From an uncultured delta proteobacterium (GTDB lineage: Bacteria > Desulfobacterota > Desulfobacteria > Desulfobacterales > Desulfatirhabdiaceae): a stretch of 64,000 nt of DNA. Positions 1,254 through 32,893 of this stretch are shown one piece after another. Location of the stretch: contig CAWBKP010000010.1 of NCBI GenBank assembly GCA_963789395.1, forward strand, positions 7,351 to 71,350, given 5' to 3'. The notes under the pieces were generated by a model. That model was given only the letters and a program-made list of their open reading frames with translations, ran no database searches and had not been told where the DNA came from. Both the position numbers and the translations under genes were made by a program. Within the stretch, counting starts at the first letter, position 1. Every line of letters begins with the position of its first letter.

Positions 1254-2846
1254 TTATCTGCTGATGGCTTTAAGTGCTCCAAGCAAATACTTTGGATTGT
1301 GAGTCGAGTCGTACATTGGATGTACATTCTGTCCCGTATCAAACAACCCATATACAGCCATTTGCGCCGTCCGCACTGAATACTCTACCGTAAACACACA
1401 GTCTTTCGGTGCTTCGGCAAATTGACCCAAAAAGGCAAAATTCGTTGCGCCTTCCGGTATGACCTTTGGTCTATCTCCAATTATTCTCGGCATGAACAGA
1501 CTATCAATAAACGGCATCGCAACCGGAATACAATTTGCCTTACCGGCTGCAGTAACCGGTTTCATGATATCTTGAATTTTCAAATGATAATAAAGCTCTT
1601 CGAGCATTTCGGCACCGGTACACGCTGCCATGGTTTTGTCGATGTAATTGCCTTTTCTGTCGGGATAGAGCCCGTACCCCCAAAAAATCTTTACATCGTC
1701 CGGCTGGTTCGGAAAGTGAGGCTGTCGAGCGATGACAAATGACATGAGCCAGTTGGAGTCAGTCAGGGTAACCAGTCCGCCGGTTCCATCGACATTGCCG
1801 GAAAAGTTTTCCATATAATCATGAAAGGTGCTGTCTTTATAGGTGGCTGTAAATGAATACCATTTTTGCAAACCGATATTGTCACAAAATGGATCTGGGC
1901 TTCCGAACGCCTTGTCTTTTGTCGCTAGTTTTTTCCACAGTTTCCAGGAGCCGGAGTCTTCTATACCTTTCAACTTGGCTGGCGTATCCCAGGTTCCATT
2001 ATCAGAACTTTCTGTGATGGAGCCATTTGTGATCAACACAAAATCATCTTTTCCAAGTACTATTTCAGTGTTGTCTTTAAGGTGGAGCATGGTAGCAGTC
2101 TTTTTGTCAGCGGATAGATTGAAATCGATATCAACAACTTCTTTGCCCAATTCAAACTTCACGCCCTTTTCTTCGAGGTATTTTTTTAACGGCCTAACTA
2201 CAGAGTCGTATTGATTGTATTTGGTACGCATTACACCGCCCAATCTGGGCAGGCCTTCGACAAGATGCACAAACCTTTTCATGTATCTTCTCATTTCGGC
2301 AAGGCTGCTCCATTTTTGAAATGCAAACATGGAACTCCATATATACCAGAATGTTGTGTCAAAAAAGGCTTGATCAAACCAATCCTGTATTCGTTTATTG
2401 CCAAGAGATTTTTCTGAAACGAAAGTTAATTTAAGGAAGTCTGTTTGTTGTTTAAATGATAAACCATAAGAAGAGACATCCATTTTTTTTCCATCTTTCA
2501 GAAGACGGGCCTGTCCGTTTGAAACAAAACGTTCATTAAAATCAAAAGATTCGTCTCGCACCGAAATATCGGGGTCTTCCAGCGAAGGAATGTGAGACAG
2601 CAGCTCCCAATAACATTCGTAATGCATTTCATGCATTCTTCCACCACGAACGACAAATCCTTTATCTTTATCGCCTGAGCCATCAGTGGCGCCACCGACA
2701 ATTGAATCTTTTTCCAAAATGTGAATATTTCCGCCGGGAATTCCAGCATCTTTTTCCAAATATACCGCACTTGCCAGTCCGGCAATTCCGCTGCCTATAA
2801 GGTACACCGTAGAACTTTTCGGGTTTGTATTACTTTCTGTTTTCAT
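1254..2846 (-). CDS. ohyA: oleate hydratase (myosin-cross-reactive antigen family, FAD-dependent)
   Basis: 530-aa ORF. N-terminal FAD fold motif YLIGSGIAGLASAVYL, then GGRMHEMHYECYWELLSHIPS and WYSFTATYKD, which are characteristic of the MCRA/oleate hydratase family. Visibly more AT-rich than its surroundings. Confidence 0.85.
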   Translation of the reverse strand: MKTESNTNPKSSTVYLIGSGIAGLASAVYLEKDAGIPGGNIHILEKDSIVGGATDGSGDKDKGFVVRGGRMHEMHYECYWELLSHIPSLEDPDISVRDESFDFNERFVSNGQARLLKDGKKMDVSSYGLSFKQQTDFLKLTFVSEKSLGNKRIQDWFDQAFFDTTFWYIWSSMFAFQKWSSLAEMRRYMKRFVHLVEGLPRLGGVMRTKYNQYDSVVRPLKKYLEEKGVKFELGKEVVDIDFNLSADKKTATMLHLKDNTEIVLGKDDFVLITNGSITESSDNGTWDTPAKLKGIEDSGSWKLWKKLATKDKAFGSPDPFCDNIGLQKWYSFTATYKDSTFHDYMENFSGNVDGTGGLVTLTDSNWLMSFVIARQPHFPNQPDDVKIFWGYGLYPDRKGNYIDKTMAACTGAEMLEELYYHLKIQDIMKPVTAAGKANCIPVAMPFIDSLFMPRIIGDRPKVIPEGATNFAFLGQFAEAPKDCVFTVEYSVRTAQMAVYGLFDTGQNVHPMYDSTHNPKYLLGALKAISR

Positions 2847-2879: not shown

Positions 2880-3131
2880 TCAATAATGTACACCAAGTTG
2901 AGCAGAGAATTGTTCCTGTTCATAAAACCGACGTTCAAAGATTGCTGGTGAAAGATAGCCAAGTTTTTCTTGTCGTCTTTGGCGGTTATAAAAAAACACT
3001 ATGTATTCAGTGAGATCCAGATTAGCCTCTTGCCGGCTCGCATATTTTCGATGAAAAACGAGCTCTGTTTTAAGCGTTTCCCAAAAACTTTCCATGGGAG
3101 CATTGTCAAAGCGGTTTCCTTTTCCACTCAA
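2880..3131 (-). pseudogene. IS3-family transposase OrfB, C-terminal fragment (end of the rve integrase core)
   Basis: The 83-aa ORF reads KGNRFDNAPMESFWETLKTELVFHRKYASRQEANLDLTEYIVFFYNRQRRQEKLGYLSPAIFE, the conserved C-terminal block of IS3 transposases. The N-terminal three quarters are missing, because the ORF abuts the stop of gene 3135-3473. Confidence 0.7.
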
Positions 3132-5618: not shown

Positions 5619-5846
5619 TCACGGTACGGTCATGTTGTTAACCACCTTCTTTACGCCGTGAACGTCACTCACGAATTTGGTGGCCAAGTCCTTTTCAGCC
5701 GCGTTTTTGGCTTTGCCTGCCAACGTTACCACGCCTTCTTTCGTCTCGACTGTGGAAGAATCAAACAAGGCGCTGACAAACGATCTAAAATTGAAAAGGG
5801 GGTATCCATTTCGCTGGCCTATCCGTACCCGAACATCAGTTAACAA
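5619..5846 (-). CDS. BON domain protein; 5' region interrupted by a MITE
   Basis: The C-terminal part FRSFVSALFDSSTVETKEGVVTLAGKAKNAAEKDLATKFVSDVHGVKKVVNNMTVP is a BON domain. The first roughly 19 codons of the listed ORF (TTG start) are encoded by the inserted element 5797-5955. Removing the element plus one target duplication restores an open frame ...NGIASNFNFRSFVSALFDSS... that runs back to sigma-54 promoter A. Confidence 0.55.
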   Translation of the reverse strand: MLTDVRVRIGQRNGYPLFNFRSFVSALFDSSTVETKEGVVTLAGKAKNAAEKDLATKFVSDVHGVKKVVNNMTVP

Positions 5847-5955
5847 TTTATGCTGACAATTGCTCTATATGGAGGAGGGACTTCATATAAAGTATGTTGT
5901 GAACAATGATAATTTATATTCACACAATAATAGGCCAGCGAAATGGATACCCCCT
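5797..5955. mobile_element. 159-bp MITE-like element with 26-bp perfect terminal inverted repeats and an 8-bp target site duplication
   Basis: The left TIR is AGGGGGTATCCATTTCGCTGGCCTAT (5797-5822). Its exact reverse complement is at 5930-5955. Direct repeats AATTGAAA lie at 5789-5796 and 5956-5963. The internal 107 bp is AT-rich and non-coding. Confidence 0.75.
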
Positions 5956-6025
5956 AATTGAAATTACTGGCAATGCCGTTCAAGACAATATTGATGGAAT
6001 TAAACCGCGCGCTGCTTTTTATAAC

Positions 6026-6041
6026 TGCACTCTTTGTGCCA
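6026..6041 (-). promoter_or_regulatory. sigma-54 (-24/-12) promoter, cassette A
   Basis: The minus strand reads TGGCACAAAGAGTGCA (GG-N10-GC spacing; consensus TGGCAC-N5-TTGCA), preceded by TTGGAAACT as in the other cassettes. It lies upstream of the BON / DUF3309 / CsbD genes. Confidence 0.7.
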
Positions 6042-6141
6042 AGTTTCCAATACGCGTCATCACATCACCCATCATTCTGATATTTATTAATAATTAGTTA
6101 ACAATGCATTTGCAGGGTTGTCATTAACAACCATAATAAAA

Positions 6142-6171
6142 GGTCATATTTAACCTGTGGTCATATATGAC
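6142..6171 (-). promoter_or_regulatory. enhancer-like tandem palindrome (UAS) of cassette A
   Basis: The plus strand reads GGTCATATTTAACC-TGT-GGTCATATATGAC. GTCATATATGAC is a perfect 12-bp palindrome. The site lies 100 nt upstream of the -24 box, and the same element occurs at three other loci. Confidence 0.6.
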
Positions 6172-6324
6172 TTATTTGCGGTTAGAATTCCTATTCTTGA
6201 TTCAACCCCGCTTCGGGCTATGACGGTTTCAAGAAGCAAAGCTATCCTCTCTCAGCGGCCGAAACGAAAAAGGTGGGCGTCGTCTTCGCCTTTCTTGGTT
6301 TCCGGTGGTTCCGGTTTCATGCTA

Positions 6325-7395
6325 TCAACCGGATGCAAATTCAATGAGCGCGGCAAAAGCGGAGAAGCCGGCACCGAATGCCAGTAGCATCCCTTTTTGG
6401 CCGGGTTGTGGCCGGCCGCTGTCCAGAATCTCCCGCAAGACAAACAGAACGGAAGGTGACGACATGTTGCCGTAATTCTCGAAAATGCTGTATGAGAAGC
6501 GCAGGGCCTCGTCGGCAAGTTCCAGTTTTTTGGCGACTTGGGCCAGCACCGCCGTGCCTCCCGGATGGACCGCCCACCAGGCAATGTCATTCCGGGAGAG
6601 GTCATGCCGGTCCAGAAGCCCGGATGCCACCTCCGTCACGGTGCGCGCCCCGATAACCGGCACCCGCCTGTTCAGGTAATTCCGCAGGCGGCCGCTTTCC
6701 GTCCGGTAACGCAGATCTTCGCGGTACCGGGGAAAAAGCGCCGCCGCAAAGTCCACCATTTTCACCAGTCCGTCCTGACGGTCTTTCCGAGACAGGTCAA
6801 GAACAGCGGCGGCGGCGCCGTCTCCGAAAATGGAATTGCTCACCACCAGTTCCGGCTCATGGCCGAAAAAAATGGTGGCTGAGCATATTTCCACGGCAAG
6901 GCTGAGAACCGGACCTTCCCCGCTTCGGACCAGCATGCCGGCGGCGGCTTCGAGATTCGGAATCACCGCACCGCACCCCATCCCCATCAAATCCAGGAAG
7001 CGAATCGACGTCTTGAGCCCCAGATCTTCCGCGATATACGAGGAGAGACCGGGGCAGAGGTAACCGGTACAGGTGTTGACAACCAAACCGGATATCTCGG
7101 CGGGTTCCACGCCGGCCTCCGCCAATGCGCGGCGTGCGGCGGCAACGGCTGTGCTACGGCCGAACTTGAGAAAACGCGCCAGCAGCCGGTCGGGATCGGT
7201 TTCAAGAACATCCTCTCTGGCATCCATCCCCAGATAACGGCCTTTGATTTTGCCTTCCAGGAGAATGCGGCGATACAGATCCCGTTCGGCCGGTTTCAGG
7301 GAGAAATGCGTGAAGAAGTATTCATACGCCTCCTCCTGCGTTGCATAAAATGGCGGGGTGGCGGTACCCAACCCTCTTAGGATAATGGATTTCAC
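6325..7395 (-). CDS. type III polyketide synthase (chalcone synthase superfamily, alkylresorcinol/alkylpyrone type)
   Basis: The catalytic triad contexts are all present: NTCTGYLCPG (Cys), WAVHPGG (His) and ENYGNMSSPSV (Asn). The likely start is GTG 7393-7395, preceded by AGGAGA and overlapping the methyltransferase stop (GTGA). The listed ORF extends to 7443. Confidence 0.9.
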   Translation of the reverse strand: MKSIILRGLGTATPPFYATQEEAYEYFFTHFSLKPAERDLYRRILLEGKIKGRYLGMDAREDVLETDPDRLLARFLKFGRSTAVAAARRALAEAGVEPAEISGLVVNTCTGYLCPGLSSYIAEDLGLKTSIRFLDLMGMGCGAVIPNLEAAAGMLVRSGEGPVLSLAVEICSATIFFGHEPELVVSNSIFGDGAAAAVLDLSRKDRQDGLVKMVDFAAALFPRYREDLRYRTESGRLRNYLNRRVPVIGARTVTEVASGLLDRHDLSRNDIAWWAVHPGGTAVLAQVAKKLELADEALRFSYSIFENYGNMSSPSVLFVLREILDSGRPQPGQKGMLLAFGAGFSAFAALIEFASG

Positions 7396-8090
7396 GCAAT
7401 TTCTCCTGGTTTGAATCGGATGATGGCGGCGATCCGAAACCAACTGGCCGGCTCCACTGAAACCGTGACGCCGTCGAGTTGCCGCAACAAGGTTCTCAGC
7501 TCTTCAATCTTGAAGCCGCGCCGGATCGAGAGCAGGGCGTCATGCCGGACCCCTGCCGGCGCAGCGGTGGCGACAAGCAGTAGTCTTGCTGACAGAAACG
7601 CCAGTTGCGAGCGGCGCAGATCGTTGATCAGCATGCTGTTGCGAACGAAACCGCGAAGCCTGTGCAGCAGCATCAGGATCTGTGCATTGCTGAAATGGTG
7701 GAAGCACATGGAGGTCACGGCATAATCATACGGTTCGGCGGGTTGGTGGGTAAAGGCGTCCTCCTGAAGCAGTTTCACCGGCGGATTGCCCGCTCGGGCG
7801 AGTTGCCCGCGCGCAATGGCAATTGCATGGCCGGCCATTTCCAGGCAGGTGAAGTGCAGGGGGATGCCGCAGGCGCGCGCCCATCGGATTACCGCCAGCG
7901 GGATGTCGCAGCTTCCTGAGCCGATGTCGAGGATGCGTAGGGGGGCAAAGGCATGGCGCCCCGCAGTTTCAGCGGCCAGAAAACGCCGGACCAACCGGAT
8001 GCCGCCGAAGCGATAATTGACCGTCTCCATGAACCGGTAGCTGGCGGCGGCCAGCGACGGATCACAGTCCGGCAGGTCCAGAAGCTCCAT
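7392..8090 (-). CDS. class I SAM-dependent methyltransferase
   Basis: SAM-binding motif LRILDIGSGSCDIP, followed by the YDYAVTSMCFHHF block. The likely start is ATG 8088-8090 (MELLDLPDC...), 17 nt after the U32 stop. The listed ORF start at 8366 overlaps the upstream gene. Confidence 0.75.
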   Translation of the reverse strand: MELLDLPDCDPSLAAASYRFMETVNYRFGGIRLVRRFLAAETAGRHAFAPLRILDIGSGSCDIPLAVIRWARACGIPLHFTCLEMAGHAIAIARGQLARAGNPPVKLLQEDAFTHQPAEPYDYAVTSMCFHHFSNAQILMLLHRLRGFVRNSMLINDLRRSQLAFLSARLLLVATAAPAGVRHDALLSIRRGFKIEELRTLLRQLDGVTVSVEPASWFRIAAIIRFKPGEIA

Positions 8091-8106
8091 CTCCGCGGCG
8101 CGTGAG

Positions 8107-9348
8107 TCAAACACCCCAGAGCCCTCCCGTTGCCATGGCTTCGTCCATGTCCGCATACTTTCTAAGCACCTCGGTACGATACGCGGGCAAGATCGAAACG
8201 GCTTGGTCTGCAATCCGCTCGCAATAGCCGCAAGCCTGGCAGTCCATGGAGGCGCAGTCACGGCCCCGAAAACCGTCCAGGAAATTCTCCGGAATCTGCT
8301 GCGCATCCACCCGGATCGGACACTCCGGCAGCGGCGAGAGCCAGCCTTGCAGCCGCGCCAAGTCAAGCATCGGTTTCAATCTCAGCGGATTCACCTGCCG
8401 CGGCTTCCAGAAGTGGCGCAGAGTCCAGTGCGATTCCTTGTGAACCGGATTATTAAAGCCATACGACAGCAGCAGTTCTGCCAGATTGCCGGCGAACCGC
8501 CGCTCGCTGTATGCTTTGACGCGCCGCAGCAGCTCCGCTGACGGAATCCCCCGTTCCAGAAGCTTGAAGGACGTGTATCCCATCGCTTCATACACAGCAA
8601 GGTCCTCCGGCCGAATCCAGGCCGACTTGATGAATTGCGACGGATCCGTCAGCCGCTGCCGGGAACAGCGCATAAAGCAGTAATCGATGAAGAGTGTGTT
8701 GGTGTCGTCAGATGCATGTGCAAAACCGTTTTGATGATAGGTTTGCATCGGACAATTCATGAGGCAGACGTGATTCGCGATCAGTTCCAGATCGCATCGG
8801 ACGGCCTGACGGATAGCCGCAAGGCGGGAGAAATTCCGGTTGATCGAGAAGCTCTCCAGAACGATGGCATCCGCCCCGAGATCTTCCCAGAATCGGGCGC
8901 GCCGGGGCGTGTCCACCTGGGCGTAAATCCCGACCCTTACCTTGAACTCGGGGAAACGGCGTTTGACCAGTTCCAGAAGAAACGGGGTGGATACGGTGAC
9001 CCGGCGGACTCCCAAGCCGCCCAGCCTGGTCAGCAGGGCCGTCATCCGTTTCTGCCAGGGGCGTGTCCATTCGCGATTGCCGAAACAGGCGCCGTTTAAA
9101 AGGTAATTGAAGGCAATGCCATGATGGTCGAGCAGGCGAATGTAACGCCGCAGATCCGCTTCCGTGAGCGGTGTCGCCAGGTAGCGGGGACGGCCACCGC
9201 TGATACCGTCTGCGGGGAACTTGCCGTAAACTTCATCGACCGGGTACGCAGCAAGCTTCGGAACCAGTTCCGGATCGTAGTTAGCCGCCAGTGAGAACCT
9301 GGTTGGCCGGGGTGCGGTCCGGACGGCGCTTGTCGGCTCATTTGGCAT
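8107..9348 (-). CDS. peptidase U32 family protein (Fe-S cluster type; candidate O2-independent hydroxylase rather than protease)
   Basis: TIM-barrel-like U32 layout: [11 protein letters not shown] ... [17 protein letters not shown] ... [16 protein letters not shown] ... [15 protein letters not shown]. Four clustered Cys (HVCLMNC ... DYCFMRC) plus a C-terminal CX4CX2CX2C motif ([14 protein letters not shown]). The true start is probably ATG 9346-9348 (MPNEPTSA). The listed ORF runs on to 9690 by read-through of a hydrolase remnant. Confidence 0.6.
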
Positions 9349-9379: not shown

Positions 9380-9690
9380 TCAGCTTTTAAGAAATGCCAG
9401 CAGATCTGCGTTAAGCTGATCTTTGCGTGTATGCAAGGCCGTGGGGTGCGCCGGCGTAGATCTTTAGGGTCGCATTTTTGACCGGTTTCGATGAGCTCCG
9501 AGAGGTCGTCGGCGTAAGTGCCCATATCGTTGTCGCTCCAGGGCTGGCTCGACCGCCCATGGCCGCGACGGTCATGGGCGATGCATCGATAGCCGCCGGA
9601 AGCCCAGAACATCGTCTGAGCCTCCCAGCTATCCGAACTGAGGGGCCAGTCCTTTCTTTGCATCAAGTCTTTCTGCTTTGAATTTGCCAA
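9380..9690 (-). pseudogene. alpha/beta hydrolase (non-haem chloroperoxidase/arylesterase-like) remnant with an internal deletion
   Basis: The N-terminal piece is [54 protein letters not shown]. It is joined directly to the C-terminal end [18 protein letters not shown] / [14 protein letters not shown], which lies in other frames. The nucleophile elbow and core are missing. Confidence 0.6.
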
Positions 9691-9698
9691 CGTGACTG

Positions 9699-10073
9699 CT
9701 ATGCCTTCCAGAGGCCGTGAAGATTACAATACTCTCTTGCAGTAACTTTTGCGGCATCCAGCATAAATGTGGCTTCAGGAACCTTGCCGGGATTCAAAAA
9801 CTGCCGATAGGCTTTACCGTCTGCAACAATTTCAATCCATTCAATCAAATGTTTTTCTTCCATGGGGTGGGCGACACTGCCCACTTTTACCTTGAAGCCG
9901 CCCGGAACTTTTTCAATTACCGGAACATGCTTTTCCTTTGCTGCATCAACGGTGTTTTCAACCGTCTGTTTCATGGGCTGGCCGCAGCAGACAAGATCGC
10001 CCTCGCCGGAATGAAGGACCTCAACGATATTGCCACAGATGTCACATTTATAAACTTGAAGTTTCTCTGTCAT
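9699..10073 (-). CDS. dfx: desulfoferrodoxin (2Fe superoxide reductase)
   Basis: 124 aa. N-terminal desulforedoxin-like CxxC ... CC ([27 protein letters not shown]) and the C-terminal SOR domain (KHVPVIEK ... [13 protein letters not shown] ... YCNLHGLW). Confidence 0.9.
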
Positions 10074-12087: not shown

Positions 12088-13572
12088 TTAAAGAATATAT
12101 CGCTCACAAATTTTGCGGTAGTGATGGCCATATATTGAAAGCGTGACTGCCAATGACAGTTGTCTGGGCCTGCGGATCAGGGTCCAGAGCATCAGTTGCC
12201 AGTAACGAAAACGCTCCTTCCCCAATACCCCGAGTCGGAAAGCGGCGCGAAAGAATGAAAGAAACCGTTGCATATTTATCGGCTGGTTGATTTCAGACGA
12301 CTTGAGTTCCTTCAGTAACGTTCTGACACGCCGGTAGTAGTATTTCGGAGAATAAATCTGTTTCATGATCGATTGATACCCTTCCAAAAGGCTGTCCATG
12401 CCCATTCGAGGAATGATATTGGTTGTTCCATCAACATTATCTCCGGTAAAGGTATCGACCACCCGGCTCTCCCGTTGAAGCCGGTCAAAAAGACGGGTAC
12501 CCGGAATGGCCTGGAGCATTCCCACCATTGCTGTGACGATTCCGCTCTTCTGTATGAAATCGATCTGACGTTGGAAAATTGAAGGCTTATCGTTGTCAAA
12601 GCCCACAATAAAACCGCCCATCACCTGCAGCCCTGAATGGTGGATGATATTGACGCTTTCCAGAAGATCCCGGTTCTTATTCTGGGTTTTATGACATTCC
12701 GTCAGACTGACTTCATCGGGAGACTCGATACCGATAAAAACGGCATCGAATCCGGCCATTACCATCATGTCCAGAAGTTCAGGGTCATCGGCGAGATTGA
12801 TGGAGGCTTCCGTGAAAAAAACACATCCCTTTTTATCTTTGCGCCATTCGATCAGGGCCGGAAGTAAATGCGCTTTAAGGAAGCCCTTATTTCCAATAAA
12901 ATTGTCATCAACAAAAAATATACTGCCGCGCCATCCGGAAGCATAAATTCGGTCCAGTTCCGCGATGACTTGCTGATGTGTTTTTAAGCGCGGCCGGTGA
13001 CCGAACAGCGCCGTCACATTGCAGAATTCGCAGTTGAAAGGACATCCCCTGGAAAACTGAATGTTCAGGGACGCATATCGTTTCATTTTTACCAGGTCCC
13101 ACGAGGGCGTCGGAGAGTCGCAAAGATCGCAGAAGCTTGAAGCCCTGTAGACTTTTTTGGGCTGACCGTTTTGCAAGTCCGACAGAAAGGCGGGAAGGGT
13201 TAATTCCGCTTCATCGAGAACAAGATGATCCACCCCATTGAATTCATCGGGCTCGGAAGTAAAAAGAGGCCCGCCGGCAACGACTTTTAAATGCAGCGCA
13301 TTGCAACGGGCGATGATTTCCCTGGCCGATTTGCGCTGAATTGCCATGCCTCCGATAAATACCAGATCCGCCCATAAAAGTTCTTTATCCGTGAGGATAT
13401 CCACGTTCACGTCCACAAGGCGCTTGGACCATTTTACCGGCAACAGGGACGCTACCGTAAGCAGGCCAAGCGGCGGGAAAGCCGCCTTCTTTCCGATAAA
13501 ACTCAAAGCGTACGTGAAAGACCAGAACGTATCCGGAAATTTGGGGTAAACAAGGAGAACGTTCATATCCAA
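12088..13572 (-). CDS. B12-binding domain radical SAM protein (DUF4070 C-terminal type)
   Basis: N-terminal cobalamin-binding Rossmann part (LLVYPKF ... DLVFIGGM), radical SAM motif RGCPFNCEFC (CX3CX2C), and a long helical C-terminal extension. Confidence 0.85.
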   Translation of the reverse strand: MDMNVLLVYPKFPDTFWSFTYALSFIGKKAAFPPLGLLTVASLLPVKWSKRLVDVNVDILTDKELLWADLVFIGGMAIQRKSAREIIARCNALHLKVVAGGPLFTSEPDEFNGVDHLVLDEAELTLPAFLSDLQNGQPKKVYRASSFCDLCDSPTPSWDLVKMKRYASLNIQFSRGCPFNCEFCNVTALFGHRPRLKTHQQVIAELDRIYASGWRGSIFFVDDNFIGNKGFLKAHLLPALIEWRKDKKGCVFFTEASINLADDPELLDMMVMAGFDAVFIGIESPDEVSLTECHKTQNKNRDLLESVNIIHHSGLQVMGGFIVGFDNDKPSIFQRQIDFIQKSGIVTAMVGMLQAIPGTRLFDRLQRESRVVDTFTGDNVDGTTNIIPRMGMDSLLEGYQSIMKQIYSPKYYYRRVRTLLKELKSSEINQPINMQRFLSFFRAAFRLGVLGKERFRYWQLMLWTLIRRPRQLSLAVTLSIYGHHYRKICERYIL

Positions 13573-15551: not shown

Positions 15552-15741
15552 TTGCCACCTCCATTTTTTAGATGTTCAATCAGTTGAATAGCTCACGCAC
15601 GTACGGACGTAGAGATCGATATAGACGGGCAGGGAAATGATACTGATGCCCGGCGGTGTAACCGGTGAATAAATGACCGAAGGATAGCGGAAACAAGGCA
15701 TCCAAGGGGAATAACCTACATTTATTTCGCATTTATAATAG

Positions 15742-15757
15742 TGCATTCTTTATGCCA
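15742..15757 (-). promoter_or_regulatory. sigma-54 (-24/-12) promoter, cassette B
   Basis: The minus strand reads TGGCATAAAGAATGCA, preceded by AATGAAACC. It lies about 190 nt upstream of the lipoprotein gene start at 15551. Confidence 0.65.
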
Positions 15758-15859
15758 GGTTTCATTCACGCCGCTTTACATCATACATCATGTTGATTTT
15801 TATGAACAATTAATCCAAAAAGCATTGACAAAGCTGCCACTTGCTGTCTTATATAATAT

Positions 15860-15890
15860 GGTCATATTTAACCAGATGGTCACATATGAC
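15860..15890 (-). promoter_or_regulatory. enhancer-like tandem palindrome (UAS) of cassette B
   Basis: The plus strand reads GGTCATATTTAACC-AGAT-GGTCACATATGAC, 102 nt upstream of the -24 box. Confidence 0.6.
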
Positions 15891-16072
15891 TTTTTTCCGT
15901 CTCTTGCGTGTAGCGTGCTTTTTTACAAAAAAAATCTTTTCAATTGGCTGCCCGATAGAGGGGACAGTTTGAATTTTGCTGTAATATTCTGATTAAATGG
16001 TGTGACAATAAATCTATCAAGGACTATCCTATCGTATTACAGATTGACGAGAAGTACTTTAAAGGGGCTACC

Positions 16073-22820: not shown

Positions 22821-22836
22821 TTCAATTATTGTGCCA
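22821..22836 (-). promoter_or_regulatory. sigma-54-like (-24/-12) promoter, cassette C (weaker -12)
   Basis: The minus strand reads TGGCACAATAATTGAA (GA instead of GC at -12), preceded by GTTGAAAACC as in the other cassettes. It lies 115 nt upstream of 22706. Confidence 0.5.
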
Positions 22837-22936
22837 GGTTTTCAACACACAGCATCATTTCACCCATATTCCGATATTTAAGTATAATTTGTGAACAAAG
22901 CAGTTACAGACCTGCCATTTGCTGCCCTGTAACAAG

Positions 22937-22967
22937 GGTCATATTTAACCATGCGGTCATATATGCC
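22937..22967 (-). promoter_or_regulatory. enhancer-like tandem palindrome (UAS) of cassette C
   Basis: The plus strand reads GGTCATATTTAACC-ATGC-GGTCATATATGCC, 100 nt upstream of the -24 box. Confidence 0.55.
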
Positions 22968-23146: not shown

Positions 23147-24668
23147 TTATGGTTTTTGGATGCCAAGTTTACGCATGCGCGCGCGCAGGGTGCTGCGGTC
23201 GAGCCCAAGGATTTCAGCCGCGCTGTTTTTTCCGCCGATTTTCCAGTGGGTCTGTTCCAGTGTCTGGACAATATAGTCGCGCTCAACCGCATCCAGGGTT
23301 TTTTTGTTTGTGCTTAAACCCTTGAACGGCTTCTTGAGTTCATCAACCAGGCGCAGCTTGGGACCCGACGAGTTGATGACCGCACGTTCAATGACGTTTT
23401 CCAGCTCCCGGACATTTCCGGGCCAGTGATAGTTTTGCAAGGAACTCATGACACCCGCCGAAATGAGTTCAATGGACTTGCCCATCCGTTTGGAAATTTT
23501 TTTGACGTAAAAATCCACAAGAAGCGGGATGTCTTCCATGCGGTCCCGGAGCGGCGGCATGGTTATCGGAAAAATATTCAACCGGTACAAAAGATCTTCA
23601 CGGAAACGGCCCTTGCGGACTTCCTCTTCCAGATTGCGATTTGTGGCGGCGACAATCCGCACATCGACCTTGACGGTGTGGGAGCTGCCCAGCCGTTCAA
23701 ACTCGCCGTCCTGGAGCACTCTGAGCAGCTTTGACTGCAGTTCCAGCGGCAATTCGCCGATTTCATCCAGAAAAAGGGTGGCGCCGTTTGCGACCTCAAA
23801 TCGCCCCAGACGTCTGGCAATGGGAACCGGTGAACGCGCCTTTCTCATGACCGAACAATTCGCTTTCGATCAGGTTTGCGGGCAGTGCGGCGCAATTTAC
23901 TTTCACCAGAGACCGGTTTTTGCGCAAGCTCAAGCCGTGAATGGCCCGGGCGACCAATTCCTTGCCGGTTCCCGTCTCGCCCAGAACCAGCACGGTGGTA
24001 TCGCTGCCGGCAATTTGCTCCACTTTATAGAGCACGTATTTGAGCCCGTCACTTTGACCGATAATTTTGTCATGGTTGTATTCCAGTTTGATTTCTTCCT
24101 GCAGATAGGCTCTTTCCGCTTCCAGTTGATCTTTTAACATTTTTATTTCGGAAAGGGCGGTTTCAGCTTTTTGTTTTCCTTTTTCCGCCGCTTCTTTTGC
24201 GATGACAAGCTCGGCCGTTCGATTGGTCACCTCGCGTTCAAGAAAGGCGGTCTGGTCCCGCAGGAAATCGGCCATGGCCTTCAGCGCCAGATGGTTCTTC
24301 ACGCGCGCCATGACGATGGGCGGGCTGATCGGCTTGGTGATGTAGTCGACCGCGCCGAGTTCCAGCCCTTTCTTCTCGTCCTCCATTTCAGACCTGGCGG
24401 TGAGAAAGATCACCGGGATGTTCATCGTCTCGGGATCGCGCTTGAGTCGCCGGCACACCTCGTAACCGTCCATGCCGGGCATCATGATGTCGAGCAGGAT
24501 CAGGTCCGGCGGCGGGTCCGACGCCGCGATCCTCAGCGCCTTCTCGCCACCGTTGGCGATTTTCACCTTGTAGGTATCCTTGAGCAGACTGCTCATCAGC
24601 GCCAGGTTGTCCGGCGTGTCGTCGACCACCAGTATCGTGGTCCTTTCGGTGAAATCGAGTTCGTCCAT
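23147..24668 (-). CDS. sigma-54-dependent response regulator (REC - coiled-coil - AAA+ - Fis-type HTH), one frameshift
   Basis: REC ([11 protein letters not shown] ... DIMMPGMDG), AAA+ sigma-54 interaction domain ([42 protein letters not shown]) and HTH ([22 protein letters not shown]). It is split into ORFs 23796-24668 and 23147-23848 by a frameshift near 23825. Confidence 0.85.
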
Positions 24669-32745: not shown

Positions 32746-32761
32746 TGCACGCATTGTGCCA
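32746..32761 (-). promoter_or_regulatory. sigma-54 (-24/-12) promoter, cassette D
   Basis: The minus strand reads TGGCACAATGCGTGCA, preceded by TTGGAAAAC. It lies about 87 nt upstream of the BON lipoprotein start. Confidence 0.75.
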
Positions 32762-32862
32762 GTTTTCCAACACGCAGCGTCAAGCCACTCATCTATTTGA
32801 TTTTAAATAATAATTTGTTAACAATGCACTTATACGACTGGCATTGGCGGATAGAAATAAAG

Positions 32863-32893
32863 GGTCATATTTAACCGATGGTTATATATGACC
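32863..32893 (-). promoter_or_regulatory. enhancer-like tandem palindrome (UAS) of cassette D
   Basis: The plus strand reads GGTCATATTTAACC-GAT-GGTTATATATGACC, 101 nt upstream of the -24 box. Confidence 0.6.

What the first reader, a model, noticed from the sequence alone, without database searches (positions are those of the whole stretch)
6325..9348. Type III PKS operon has a U32-family Fe-S protein where aerobes have a flavin hydroxylase
Three translationally coupled genes form the order U32-like protein, SAM methyltransferase, type III PKS. The U32 stop is 17 nt from the MT start, and the MT stop overlaps the PKS GTG as GTGA.

Established knowledge:
- The widespread srsABC-type operons combine a type III PKS, a methyltransferase and an O2-dependent flavoprotein hydroxylase. 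They convert alkylresorcinols to methoxy-alkylquinones.
- U32-family proteins (UbiU/UbiV, TrhP, RlhA) carry 4Fe-4S clusters and perform O2-independent hydroxylations.

Seen here: the U32-like protein has a four-Cys cluster (HVCLMNC ... DYCFMRC) plus a C-terminal CX4CX2CX2C motif. The host looks strictly anaerobic, since desulfoferrodoxin is the next gene.

Inference: this could be an anaerobic route to hydroxylated or quinone-type phenolic lipids, which I do not know to be described. The operon is visibly more GC-rich than the stress genes on either side, and it is bordered by a hydrolase relic and a MITE-bearing locus.
Basis: partly seen in the sequence, partly recalled or inferred. Interest (0 to 1): 0.8.

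Follow-up and report, generated by a model that had tools for sequence, protein, structure and literature searches.

The report
Anaerobe polyketide operon with U32 enzyme
A three-gene cassette (iron-sulfur U32-type enzyme, methyltransferase, type III polyketide synthase) that spreads between many anaerobic bacterial phyla looks like an oxygen-free version of the known pathway that turns phenolic lipids into quinones, and no paper I could search links these enzyme families.

Summary
On the minus strand lie three intact genes. The U32-like gene is 8107-9348. After a 16-nt gap comes a SAM methyltransferase (7392-8090). Its stop overlaps the GTG start of a type III PKS (6325-7395) as GTGA. The block is 60% GC against 38-50% GC beside it.

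The first protein is a real but divergent U32 member:
- Pfam gives 30 bits.
- The profile and fold best hit is PDB 5D88.
- Seven Cys are invariant or nearly so; two of them align with the Fe-S ligands C169 and C176 of UbiU.

Linkage with a type III PKS is strong:
- 54 of 74 assessable genome loci from many phyla carry a PKS next to this U32 gene.
- A second U32 clade, only 41-42% identical, has one in 58 of 60 loci, with a different methyltransferase.

In aerobes the homologous methyltransferase and PKS sit with an FAD monooxygenase instead. One relative is fused to chorismate mutase, which makes prephenate. Others sit beside cytochrome bd genes.

The best reading is an O2-independent hydroxylation step that yields a quinone-type phenolic lipid. 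The chemistry is inferred, not shown. I found no paper linking U32 and type III PKS.

The parts
8107..9348 (-). U32-like putative Fe-S enzyme (413 aa): a TIM-barrel core plus a C-terminal Cys4 domain. It is the proposed O2-independent hydroxylase.
   Evidence: Pfam PF01136 30.2 bits. Profile search of PDB: 5D88, E 3e-11. AF2 model pLDDT 91.5, and Foldseek top hit 5D88 at E 6e-14, TM 0.76. hhalign to E. coli UbiU gives E 1.8e-5, with C195 and C199 on UbiU C169 and C176. Conserved Cys.
7392..8090 (-). Class I SAM-dependent methyltransferase (232 aa). It starts 16 nt after the U32 stop.
   Evidence: Methyltransf_25 and _12; NCBIfam PRK06202 at E 1e-36, below its cut-off. SAM motif LDIGSGSCD is visible in the sequence. 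It is 29% identical (E 5e-22) to the methyltransferase of the D. radiodurans T3PKS-MT-FAD oxidoreductase operon.
6325..7395 (-). Type III polyketide synthase (356 aa). The GTG start overlaps the methyltransferase stop as GTGA.
   Evidence: Chal_sti_synt_N and _C, FAE1_CUT1_RppA. Best PDB matches are Pks11 (E 1e-38), an algal PKS III, Pks18 and a rice type III PKS (Os07g0271500); I know these as long-chain acyl users. The Cys (GMGCGA), His (HPGG) and Asn (GNMSS) positions are aligned and intact.
9386..9648 (-). Decayed remnant of an alpha/beta hydrolase gene. In related cassettes the intact gene sits immediately upstream of the U32 gene.
   Evidence: tblastn with the intact 286-aa protein of L002: residues 41-95 (84% identity) and 249-285 match in different frames, and the middle ~150 residues are missing. 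Weak Abhydrolase_1 hit. The intact gene lies close upstream of U32 in L002, L013, L021 and L029, and elsewhere in the locus in L045, L055 and L077.
6269..6293 (.). Hairpin about 30 nt after the PKS stop; a possible terminator. The evidence is weak.
   Evidence: Terminator-like match, listed on the + strand only, and the total number of matches is not above the shuffle expectation. DNA homology to other cassettes ends at about 6289-6337.

Best explanation
The three genes form one horizontally mobile biosynthetic cassette. It is the anaerobe counterpart of the aerobic srsABC / pkqABC / hidABC triads.

Proposed steps:
1. The type III PKS builds a phenolic (resorcinol-type) ring, probably on a fatty-acyl starter.
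2. The U32-like Fe-S enzyme adds a ring hydroxyl without O2. By analogy with UbiU/V, TrhP and RlhA it would use prephenate as the oxygen donor.
3. The methyltransferase methylates the ring or a hydroxyl.

The product would be a quinol/quinone-type phenolic lipid. It would plausibly act as a membrane redox carrier or antioxidant during oxygen stress.

Shown here: gene identities, intact catalytic and Cys motifs, operon structure, recurrent linkage, homology of the methyltransferase and PKS to the aerobic triads, and absence of a flavin monooxygenase.

Inferred: Fe-S binding, hydroxylase activity, prephenate use, starter unit, product and physiological role.
For: Operon structure: 16-nt gap and GTGA overlap.

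U32 membership: Pfam, PDB 5D88 by profile and by fold with a pLDDT-91.5 model.

Cys motif: C195 and C199 align to the UbiU cluster ligands C169 and C176 (ligands from PMC6747719). Seven Cys are conserved down to 30% identity.

Linkage in the window's own clade:
- A PKS is present in 54 of 74 assessable loci.
- Linkage survives swaps to non-orthologous partners. Examples are a 30-35% identical PKS in L016, L018, L020, L027, L069, L075, L078 and L080, and a different methyltransferase family in L069.

Linkage in a second clade: at 41-42% identity, the operon is YceI-T3PKS-(MMPL-unknown)-U32-UbiE-type MT, with a PKS in 58 of 60 assessable loci.

Aerobic homologues: the methyltransferase and PKS sit with an FAD monooxygenase in Sphingobium and Deinococcus, and in published triads (PMC10896814, PMC9927152).

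Gene fusions:
- One subfamily member is fused to a chorismate-binding domain plus chorismate mutase, the enzyme that makes prephenate.
- Another is fused to a methyltransferase.

Quinol-enzyme context:
- UbiA prenyltransferase, cydA, cydB and rubrerythrin run divergent from the triad in Victivallales. In L067 the PKS lies in the cydAB operon.
- A 45% identical relative overlaps a CydA-like gene followed by multihaem cytochromes.

Horizontal transfer: DNA identity of 75-93% to other loci, including loci from other phyla, stops at the cassette ends. Cassette GC is more uniform than host GC.
Against: - No biochemical data exist for any member of this subfamily.
- The Pfam U32 hit of the window protein is weak and partial.
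- The Cys spacing (C-X3-C-X24-C-X3-C) differs from the canonical CX6CX15CX3/4C, and C224 is only about 80% conserved in the broad alignment.
- There is no UbiV-like partner and no UbiT.
- 19 of 80 loci carry a highly conserved U32 gene with no PKS or methyltransferase within 6 kb, so the enzyme may have another substrate, or the PKS lies elsewhere.
- Other subfamily members sit among B12-radical SAM genes without a PKS.
- Direct hydroxylase activity has not been demonstrated in vitro for any U32 protein (PMC10990095).
- The cytochrome bd link is seen in only a few lineages.
Confidence: 0.55

Rival explanations
1. The U32-like Fe-S enzyme acts on the polyketide but does something other than hydroxylation. 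Possibilities include decarboxylation or aromatisation of an alkylresorcylic acid, reductive dehydroxylation, or another redox tailoring step. It could also make a chorismate- or prephenate-derived starter unit for the PKS.
For: Linkage to the PKS is as strong as for the main explanation. The protein has a second, C-terminal Cys4 site that the canonical U32 motif described in PMC6747719 does not include. The Cys spacing is non-canonical. The fusion to chorismate-binding plus chorismate mutase domains would also fit prephenate as a substrate rather than an oxygen donor. Relatives sit in B12-radical SAM clusters.
Against: Every U32 protein with a known role is tied to O2-independent ring hydroxylation (PMC6747719, PMC10990095, PMC11574389). 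The enzyme missing relative to the aerobic triads is precisely the hydroxylase.
Confidence: 0.22
2. The U32-like protein has a role of its own, unrelated to the PKS, such as RNA or another cofactor's hydroxylation. It sits next to the PKS only because both travel in the same mobile pool of stress genes.
For: 19 of 80 loci have the U32 gene without a PKS or methyltransferase, yet at 84-88% identity. It is often paired with the alpha/beta hydrolase instead. Neighbouring genes (cupin, ferritin-like protein, nitroreductase, P-type ATPase) are also 74-95% identical between loci assigned to different phyla.
Against: DNA homology ends exactly at the three-gene block. Linkage persists with non-orthologous PKS and methyltransferase genes and with changed gene order. 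It persists in a clade only 41-42% identical (58 of 60 loci). The genes are tightly spaced or overlapping. In a neighbour-joining tree, the U32-only loci fall mostly in derived groups nested among triad-bearing ones.
Confidence: 0.1
3. It is a collagenase-like (PrtC) protease, as the database names say.
For: Source annotations read 'collagenase-like PrtC family protease' or 'U32 family peptidase'.
Against: The names are inherited from the family label. The conserved Cys clusters, the operon with a PKS and methyltransferase, and the fusions to chorismate mutase or a methyltransferase do not suggest a protease. I ran no signal-peptide prediction.
Confidence: 0.02

Closest known systems
srsABC (Streptomyces griseus), pkqABC (Mycobacterium smegmatis, Streptomyces) and hidABC (picocyanobacteria, planctomycetes): type III PKS + methyltransferase + FAD-dependent hydroxylase/oxidoreductase operons that make alkylresorcinol-derived quinones
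   Same: [quoted passage not shown] Identity to the Deinococcus and Sphingobium versions is 29-30% for both proteins. A third gene is a candidate ring-oxidising enzyme. The published products are alkyl-benzoquinones used as alternative electron carriers in low oxygen (PMC9927152).
   Different: The flavin, O2-dependent hydroxylase is absent, and a U32-type Fe-S protein occupies its place. The hosts are mostly anaerobes. The cassette is 75-93% identical in DNA to other loci, including loci from other phyla. The product is unknown.
UbiU-UbiV (with UbiT): O2-independent, prephenate-dependent hydroxylases of ubiquinone biosynthesis
   Same: U32 superfamily. The Cys pair aligns with UbiU C169 and C176. 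The proposed job is the same: hydroxylating a benzenoid ring of a lipid quinone precursor without O2, followed by methylation.
   Different: Similarity is only remote (hhalign E 1.8e-5, N-terminal 157 columns). There is no similarity to UbiV. It is a single gene, not a heterodimer pair, with no UbiT. It has an extra C-terminal Cys4 domain and a different Cys spacing. The substrate would come from a polyketide, not from 4-hydroxybenzoate.
TrhP and RlhA: U32 proteins needed for O2-independent hydroxylation of tRNA U34 and 23S rRNA C2501
   Same: U32 fold and Cys-rich motif. Genetic dependence on prephenate is reported for them (PMC11574389).
   Different: The NCBIfam TrhP score is 14.7 bits against a cut-off of 534. 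The genomic context is a PKS and a methyltransferase, not RNA modification genes.
MK0906 of Methanopyrus kandleri (PDB 5D88), the only solved U32 structure
   Same: Best sequence-profile hit (E 3e-11) and best fold hit (E 6e-14, TM 0.76).
   Different: In the alignment MK0906 lacks the Cys at the positions of C195 and C199. It is 254 aa with no C-terminal domain, and its function is unknown.

Membership tests
Peptidase U32 / U32 Fe-S 'oxidase' superfamily (PF01136) | Match to the Pfam U32 model above its gathering score | tested here: met
   30.2 bits against a cut-off of 22.4, E 3.3e-7, but only profile positions 3-97 of 233. Relatives at 33-40% identity score 46-53 bits over positions 3-192.
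Peptidase U32 / U32 Fe-S 'oxidase' superfamily (PF01136) | TIM-barrel fold like PDB 5D88 | tested here: met
   AF2 model pLDDT 91.5, pTM 0.90. Foldseek top hit is 5D88 at E 6e-14, TM 0.76; the next hit is at E 6.6e-7. The profile hit to 5D88 is E 3e-11.
Peptidase U32 / U32 Fe-S 'oxidase' superfamily (PF01136) | Four conserved Cys in a CX6CX15CX3/4C pattern that bind a [4Fe-4S] cluster | tested here: inconclusive
   The pattern here is C195-X3-C199-X24-C224-X3-C228. C195 and C199 align to UbiU C169 and C176. C195, C199 and C228 are invariant, and C224 is present in 32 of 40. The spacing is not canonical. The 3D positions of the Cys could not be read from the model.
Peptidase U32 / U32 Fe-S 'oxidase' superfamily (PF01136) | Binds Fe-S and supports prephenate-dependent, O2-independent hydroxylation | not testable with these tools
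   Only indirect evidence: a subfamily member fused to chorismate mutase.
UbiU/UbiV orthologues | Full-length similarity to UbiU or UbiV, a paired U and V gene, and UbiT nearby | tested here: not met
   No NCBIfam UbiU or UbiV hit. hhalign to UbiU covers the N-terminal 157 columns only (E 1.8e-5), and UbiV gives E 0.16. It is a single gene with no SCP2/UbiT neighbour.
TrhP / RlhA orthologues | Score above the NCBIfam equivalog cut-off | tested here: not met
   TrhP model: 14.7 bits against a cut-off of 534.
Type III polyketide synthase | Chal_sti_synt N and C domains with the Cys-His-Asn triad | tested here: met
   Pfam hits. In the alignment to Pks11 the Cys (GMGCGA), His (HPGG) and Asn (GNMSS) are all in place.
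srsABC/pkqABC/hidABC-type phenolic-lipid quinone operon | A methyltransferase homologous to the one in those operons, adjacent to the PKS | tested here: met
   29% identity, E 5e-22, to the D. radiodurans methyltransferase that lies between a type III PKS and an FAD oxidoreductase. 30% identity to the Sphingobium indicum one. SrsB, PkqB and HidA themselves were not compared.
srsABC/pkqABC/hidABC-type phenolic-lipid quinone operon | An FAD-dependent monooxygenase or oxidoreductase in the operon | tested here: not met
   The operon holds no such gene, and none adjoins it. The upstream neighbour is desulfoferrodoxin and the ORFs downstream are a BON fragment and an AsmA-family gene. The nearest flavin-domain protein is an MCRA-family gene at 1254-2846, about 3.5 kb away.
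srsABC/pkqABC/hidABC-type phenolic-lipid quinone operon | The PKS makes an alkylresorcinol (aldol cyclisation; Trp at ArsB position 281), and the product is an alkylquinone | not tested
   No ArsB or SrsA sequence was available to map the position. The best PDB relatives (Pks11, Pks18, an algal PKS III, a rice type III PKS) are, to my knowledge, long-chain acyl users, which is only suggestive.

The most novel reading that the evidence does not exclude
Two deep clades of a U32 Fe-S enzyme subfamily are dedicated partners of type III PKSs. Together they would give strict anaerobes in many phyla an O2-independent, isoprenoid-independent route to benzoquinone-type 'polyketide quinones'. These lipids would feed cytochrome bd-type quinol oxidases or otherwise buffer oxygen stress. 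This would be the first U32 hydroxylase working in polyketide metabolism, and a new class of anaerobic membrane redox carrier spread by horizontal transfer.
Probability: 0.35. Interest if true: 0.85.

Novelty: new variant of a known kind. Interest (0 to 1): 0.75.

Why it matters
U32 proteins are a large and mostly uncharacterised family. Their only known roles are anaerobic ubiquinone synthesis and RNA hydroxylation, and no in vitro assay exists for them. A compact three-gene cassette with a soluble or simple lipid substrate made by its own PKS would give a tractable system to test prephenate-dependent hydroxylation.

If the product is a quinone, this matters in three ways:
- It would extend polyketide quinones from actinobacteria to Desulfobacterota, Lentisphaerota, Kiritimatiellia, Planctomycetota and others.
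- It would suggest how strict anaerobes could supply quinol to cytochrome bd.
- It would add possible new lipid biomarkers for anoxic sediments.

The very high conservation across phyla (78-95% protein identity among the 120 best of more than 1300 90%-identity clusters matched) suggests strong selection and active horizontal spread.

Tried and rejected
- First AF2 run, with 20 close homologues, gave pLDDT 60. I replaced it with a 104-sequence alignment, which gave pLDDT 91.5. Model coordinates cannot be read, so Cys-Cys distances were not measured.
- PDB sequence search with the methyltransferase found nothing.
- Rfam on the whole window found nothing, and there are no tRNA genes.
- The promoter and terminator scans were not above the shuffle expectation. 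The operon's promoter remains unknown, and co-transcription with the desulfoferrodoxin gene is possible.
- Plasmid search with the U32 protein gave only a 30% identical Bacillus hit and three partial Clostridium hits, so there is no evidence of plasmid carriage.
- My first ORF clustering was polluted by antisense ORFs in GC-rich DNA. I replaced it with tblastn maps.
- Look-ups of several distant relatives landed on short contigs and gave little context.
- One literature query was badly designed and returned only clinical papers.
- I considered an integron-cassette or transposon origin. I looked for no attC-like site and searched no inverted repeats at the cassette borders, and the ORF maps of the loci I examined showed no transposase or integrase next to the cassette. 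The transfer mechanism stays unexplained.
- I rejected 'MITE' for 6018-6180 in favour of a sigma-54 promoter module.
Full report
**1. What is in the sequence**

Three ORFs lie head to tail on the minus strand.
- The U32-like gene starts at ATG 9348, with AGGA 8 nt upstream, and stops at 8109-8107 (413 aa).
- Sixteen nucleotides later the methyltransferase starts at ATG 8090 (232 aa).
- Its TGA (7394-7392) overlaps the GTG (7395-7393) of the type III PKS (356 aa, ends 6325), which is preceded by AGGAGAA.

Pfam and NCBIfam assign the following.
- Peptidase_U32: 30.2 bits against a cut-off of 22.4, partial coverage.
- A class I methyltransferase related to PRK06202, E 1e-36.
- Chal_sti_synt N and C domains.

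GC is 0.57-0.63 in the block and 0.38-0.52 beside it. Upstream lie a desulfoferrodoxin gene (9699-10073) and, between it and the U32 gene, the wreck of an alpha/beta hydrolase gene.

**2. Is the first protein really a U32 enzyme?**

Yes, but it is a divergent one.
- A profile of 20 homologues finds the only solved U32 structure, 5D88, at E 3e-11.
- An AlphaFold model built on 104 diverse homologues has pLDDT 91.5 and pTM 0.90.
- The best PDB fold match for that model is again 5D88 (E 6e-14, TM 0.76), seven orders of magnitude ahead of the next hit.

A scan of 1.84 billion representative proteins finds about 500 clusters (at 50% identity) below E 1e-30. So this is a sizeable subfamily of proteins of roughly 390-440 aa.

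Across 40 members down to 30% identity, Cys conservation is as follows.
- C195, C199, C228, C370, C373 and C376 are invariant.
- C365 is present in 39 of 40.
- C224 and C88 are each present in 32 of 40.

A profile comparison with E. coli UbiU (E 1.8e-5) places C195 and C199 on UbiU C169 and C176. Those two residues are experimentally assigned [4Fe-4S] ligands (PMC6747719). The spacing here, C-X3-C-X24-C-X3-C, differs from the canonical CX6CX15CX3/4C. The C-terminal C-X4-C-X2-C-X2-C is extra.

The protein is not an orthologue of UbiU, UbiV, TrhP or RlhA.

**3. Linkage to type III PKS**

A scan of one genome per species returned 80 loci that encode relatives 60-95% identical. They come from Desulfobacterota, Lentisphaerota/Victivallales, Kiritimatiellia, Verrucomicrobiota, Planctomycetota, BRC1, Acidobacteriota, Gemmatimonadota, Ignavibacteriota and others.

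tblastn maps of these loci give the following.

| Arrangement | Loci |
|---|---|
| U32-MT-PKS in the window's order | 47 |
| U32 with a PKS but no orthologous methyltransferase | 7 |
| U32 with the methyltransferase but no PKS | 1 |
| U32 alone | 19 |
| Cut by a contig end | 6 |

So 54 of 74 assessable loci have a type III PKS within 6 kb.

The linkage survives partner swaps.
- Several Verrucomicrobia and Planctomycetota loci pair the U32 gene with a PKS only 30-35% identical to the window's.
- L069 has the order PKS-MT-U32, with a methyltransferase of another family.

A second clade, 41-42% identical to the window protein, sits in a different operon: YceI, T3PKS, (MMPL, unknown), U32, UbiE-type methyltransferase. 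In 80 metagenome loci of that clade, 58 of 60 assessable ones have the PKS, and 67 have the UbiE-type methyltransferase.

Adjacency therefore recurs across two deep clades, in different gene orders and with non-orthologous partners. That is hard to explain without functional coupling.

**4. The aerobic counterpart**

tblastn of the window methyltransferase against plasmids and chromids finds homologues of about 30% identity in Sphingobium, Novosphingobium and Deinococcus.
- In Sphingobium indicum pSRL1 the annotated neighbours are an FAD-dependent monooxygenase and a type III PKS.
- In D. radiodurans the order is type III PKS, methyltransferase, NAD(P)/FAD-dependent oxidoreductase.

Pairwise BLASTP gives 29% identity (E 5e-22) for the methyltransferases and 30% (E 6e-35 and E 9e-26) for the PKSs.

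The same triad is published in three settings:
- hidABC and 58 planctomycete operons (PMC10896814);
- the S. griseus operon;
- pkqABC of mycobacteria and Streptomyces.

In pkqABC the product is an alkyl-benzoquinone ('polyketide quinone') that serves respiration in hypoxia (PMC9927152). The window operon has the PKS and the methyltransferase. It has no flavoprotein, and a U32 enzyme stands in its place.

**5. Clues to chemistry and role**

All characterised U32 proteins are tied to O2-independent hydroxylation of aromatic or heteroaromatic rings, with prephenate as the oxygen donor in the ubiquinone case (PMC10990095, PMC11574389).

Two natural fusions in this subfamily fit that picture.
- P0194 (924 aa) joins an anthranilate/isochorismate-synthase-like chorismate-binding domain, a type II chorismate mutase (the enzyme that makes prephenate) and a U32 domain. 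The U32 domain keeps the subfamily's Cys motifs.
- P0241 joins the U32 domain to a class I methyltransferase.

Context also points towards quinols.
- In Victivallales loci L065, L066 and L067, a UbiA-family prenyltransferase, cydA, cydB and rubrerythrin are transcribed divergently from the U32 gene.
- This arrangement is kept even where CydA is only 49% identical. In L067 the PKS itself lies in the cydAB operon.
- A 45% identical relative overlaps a CydA-like gene that is followed by multihaem cytochromes. Another lies beside a cupredoxin and a cytochrome c.
- In the second PKS-linked clade the partners are a UbiE/COQ5-family methyltransferase, a YceI lipid-binding protein and sometimes an MMPL transporter. 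All three fit a lipidic ring product.

The window PKS is closest to Pks11 and Pks18, an algal PKS III and a rice type III PKS (Os07g0271500), which to my knowledge are all long-chain acyl users. None of this shows the product. It makes a hydroxylated, methylated phenolic lipid that can cycle between quinol and quinone the most economical reading.

**6. Mobility**

blastn of the window against the 80 loci gives 75-93% DNA identity. That identity starts and stops at 6325-9348 in most loci, including loci from other phyla.

In L002 (Desulfobacterium sp. N47) the homology continues into an intact hydrolase gene, whose remnant is at 9386-9648 in the window. The ancestral unit may therefore have had four genes.

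Cassette GC varies less (sd 0.041) than the GC of its flanks (sd 0.078). It is far above the flanks in low-GC hosts such as L023, L038 and L042. The ORF maps of the loci I examined showed no transposase or integrase next to the cassette, and how it moves is unknown.

The closest relatives of the window as a whole are Desulfobacteraceae and Desulfatirhabdiaceae MAGs.

**7. What weakens the case**

- Nineteen loci have the U32 gene alone, still at 84-88% identity. It often lies with the same hydrolase, or near cupin, ferritin-like, nitroreductase or P-type ATPase genes that are also highly similar across phyla.
- In a neighbour-joining tree these loci fall mostly in derived groups, interleaved with loci that carry the 35%-type PKS. 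Relocation or exchange of the PKS is therefore plausible but unproven.
- Other subfamily members sit in B12-radical SAM clusters without a PKS. The subfamily as a whole is not PKS-specific.
- Fe-S binding, hydroxylation and the oxygen donor are all inferred.

**8. Novelty**

Full-text searches combining U32, UbiU or O2-independent quinone biosynthesis with type III PKS or polyketide terms returned no paper that links them. A late-2024 review lists only ubiquinone and RNA substrates for U32 'oxidases'.

The library lacks most subscription journals, so prior description cannot be excluded. I rate this a new variant of a known kind: a known pathway logic, with a non-orthologous, oxygen-independent enzyme class in the hydroxylase position.

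**9. Verdict**

- Confidence that the three genes are one functional unit is about 0.9.
- Confidence that the U32 enzyme is the O2-independent hydroxylase of the pathway is about 0.55.
- Confidence that the product is a quinone-type redox lipid is about 0.35-0.4.
- Interest is 0.75.

Noticed in passing
window 6018-6180, 15732-15899, 22829-22965, 32746-32892 (minus-strand sense): A ~150-bp element occurs four times at 72-75% identity. It has an invariant core, GTCATATATGACC...GGTTAAATATGACC, and then TGGCAC-N5-GTGCA, which matches the sigma-54 -24/-12 consensus as I know it. The same element occurs in L001.
   Followed up: partly
window 23147-24668 (-): A sigma-54-dependent response regulator is split into two overlapping ORFs. 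One holds the receiver domain plus the first half of the Sigma54_activat domain; the other holds the second half plus the HTH_8 domain. This is either a frameshifted pseudogene or a sequencing error. It could be the activator for the repeated sigma-54 elements.
   Followed up: no
window 5797-5822 and 5930-5955; ORF 5619-5846 (-): A perfect 26-bp inverted repeat lies just downstream of the cassette. The BON-domain ORF there matches only the C-terminal two-thirds of the BON profile, so it seems truncated. This suggests a rearrangement at the cassette's downstream edge.
   Followed up: no
L004 7940-12890: In a Desulfatirhabdiaceae MAG, the methyltransferase and PKS of an otherwise 93-95% identical cassette are separated by about 4.9 kb of inserted DNA.
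   Followed up: no
L082 3179-5953 (protein P0194): A 924-aa fusion of anthranilate-synthase-like chorismate-binding domains, a type II chorismate mutase and a U32 domain of this subfamily. A glutamine amidotransferase gene precedes it. It links the subfamily physically to chorismate and prephenate metabolism.
   Followed up: partly
L100/L101 8004-9173 and 9230-10393; L083-L086: In contigs carrying a protein that NCBI attributes to Candidatus Omnitrophica, two tandem U32-like paralogues (33-36% identical to the window protein) sit among several B12-binding radical SAM genes and PMT_2 glycosyltransferases. A U32-methyltransferase fusion sits in a similar radical SAM cluster. The tandem pair recalls UbiU and UbiV.
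   Followed up: no
L102 3511-10119; L093 5706-9278: U32 relatives 45% identical to the window protein lie next to a 658-aa CydA-like protein, multihaem cytochromes c and a cupredoxin, with no PKS. This is a third context that ties the subfamily to quinol-oxidising respiratory modules.
   Followed up: partly
L002 5109-5969, L013, L021, L029, L045, L055, L077; also cupin, ferritin-like, nitroreductase and P-type ATPase genes in L008, L009, L016, L024, L029, L031, L032, L035, L039: An alpha/beta hydrolase 81-89% identical across phyla travels with the U32 gene, even where no PKS is present. Several other neighbours are 74-95% identical between loci assigned to different phyla, as if drawn from a common mobile pool of stress genes. 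The hydrolase's role is unexplained.
   Followed up: partly
window 2880-3131 (-): An 83-aa ORF, ...DNAPMESFWETLKTELV...YNRQRRQEKLGYLSPAIFE, looks to me like the C-terminal end of an IS3-family transposase. No tool was run on it. It would be a relic about 3 kb from the cassette.
   Followed up: no
window 1254-2846 (-) and 12088-13572 (-): An MCRA-family (oleate hydratase-like) flavoprotein and a B12-binding radical SAM protein with DUF4070 flank the stress-gene region. There is no evident link to the cassette.
   Followed up: no
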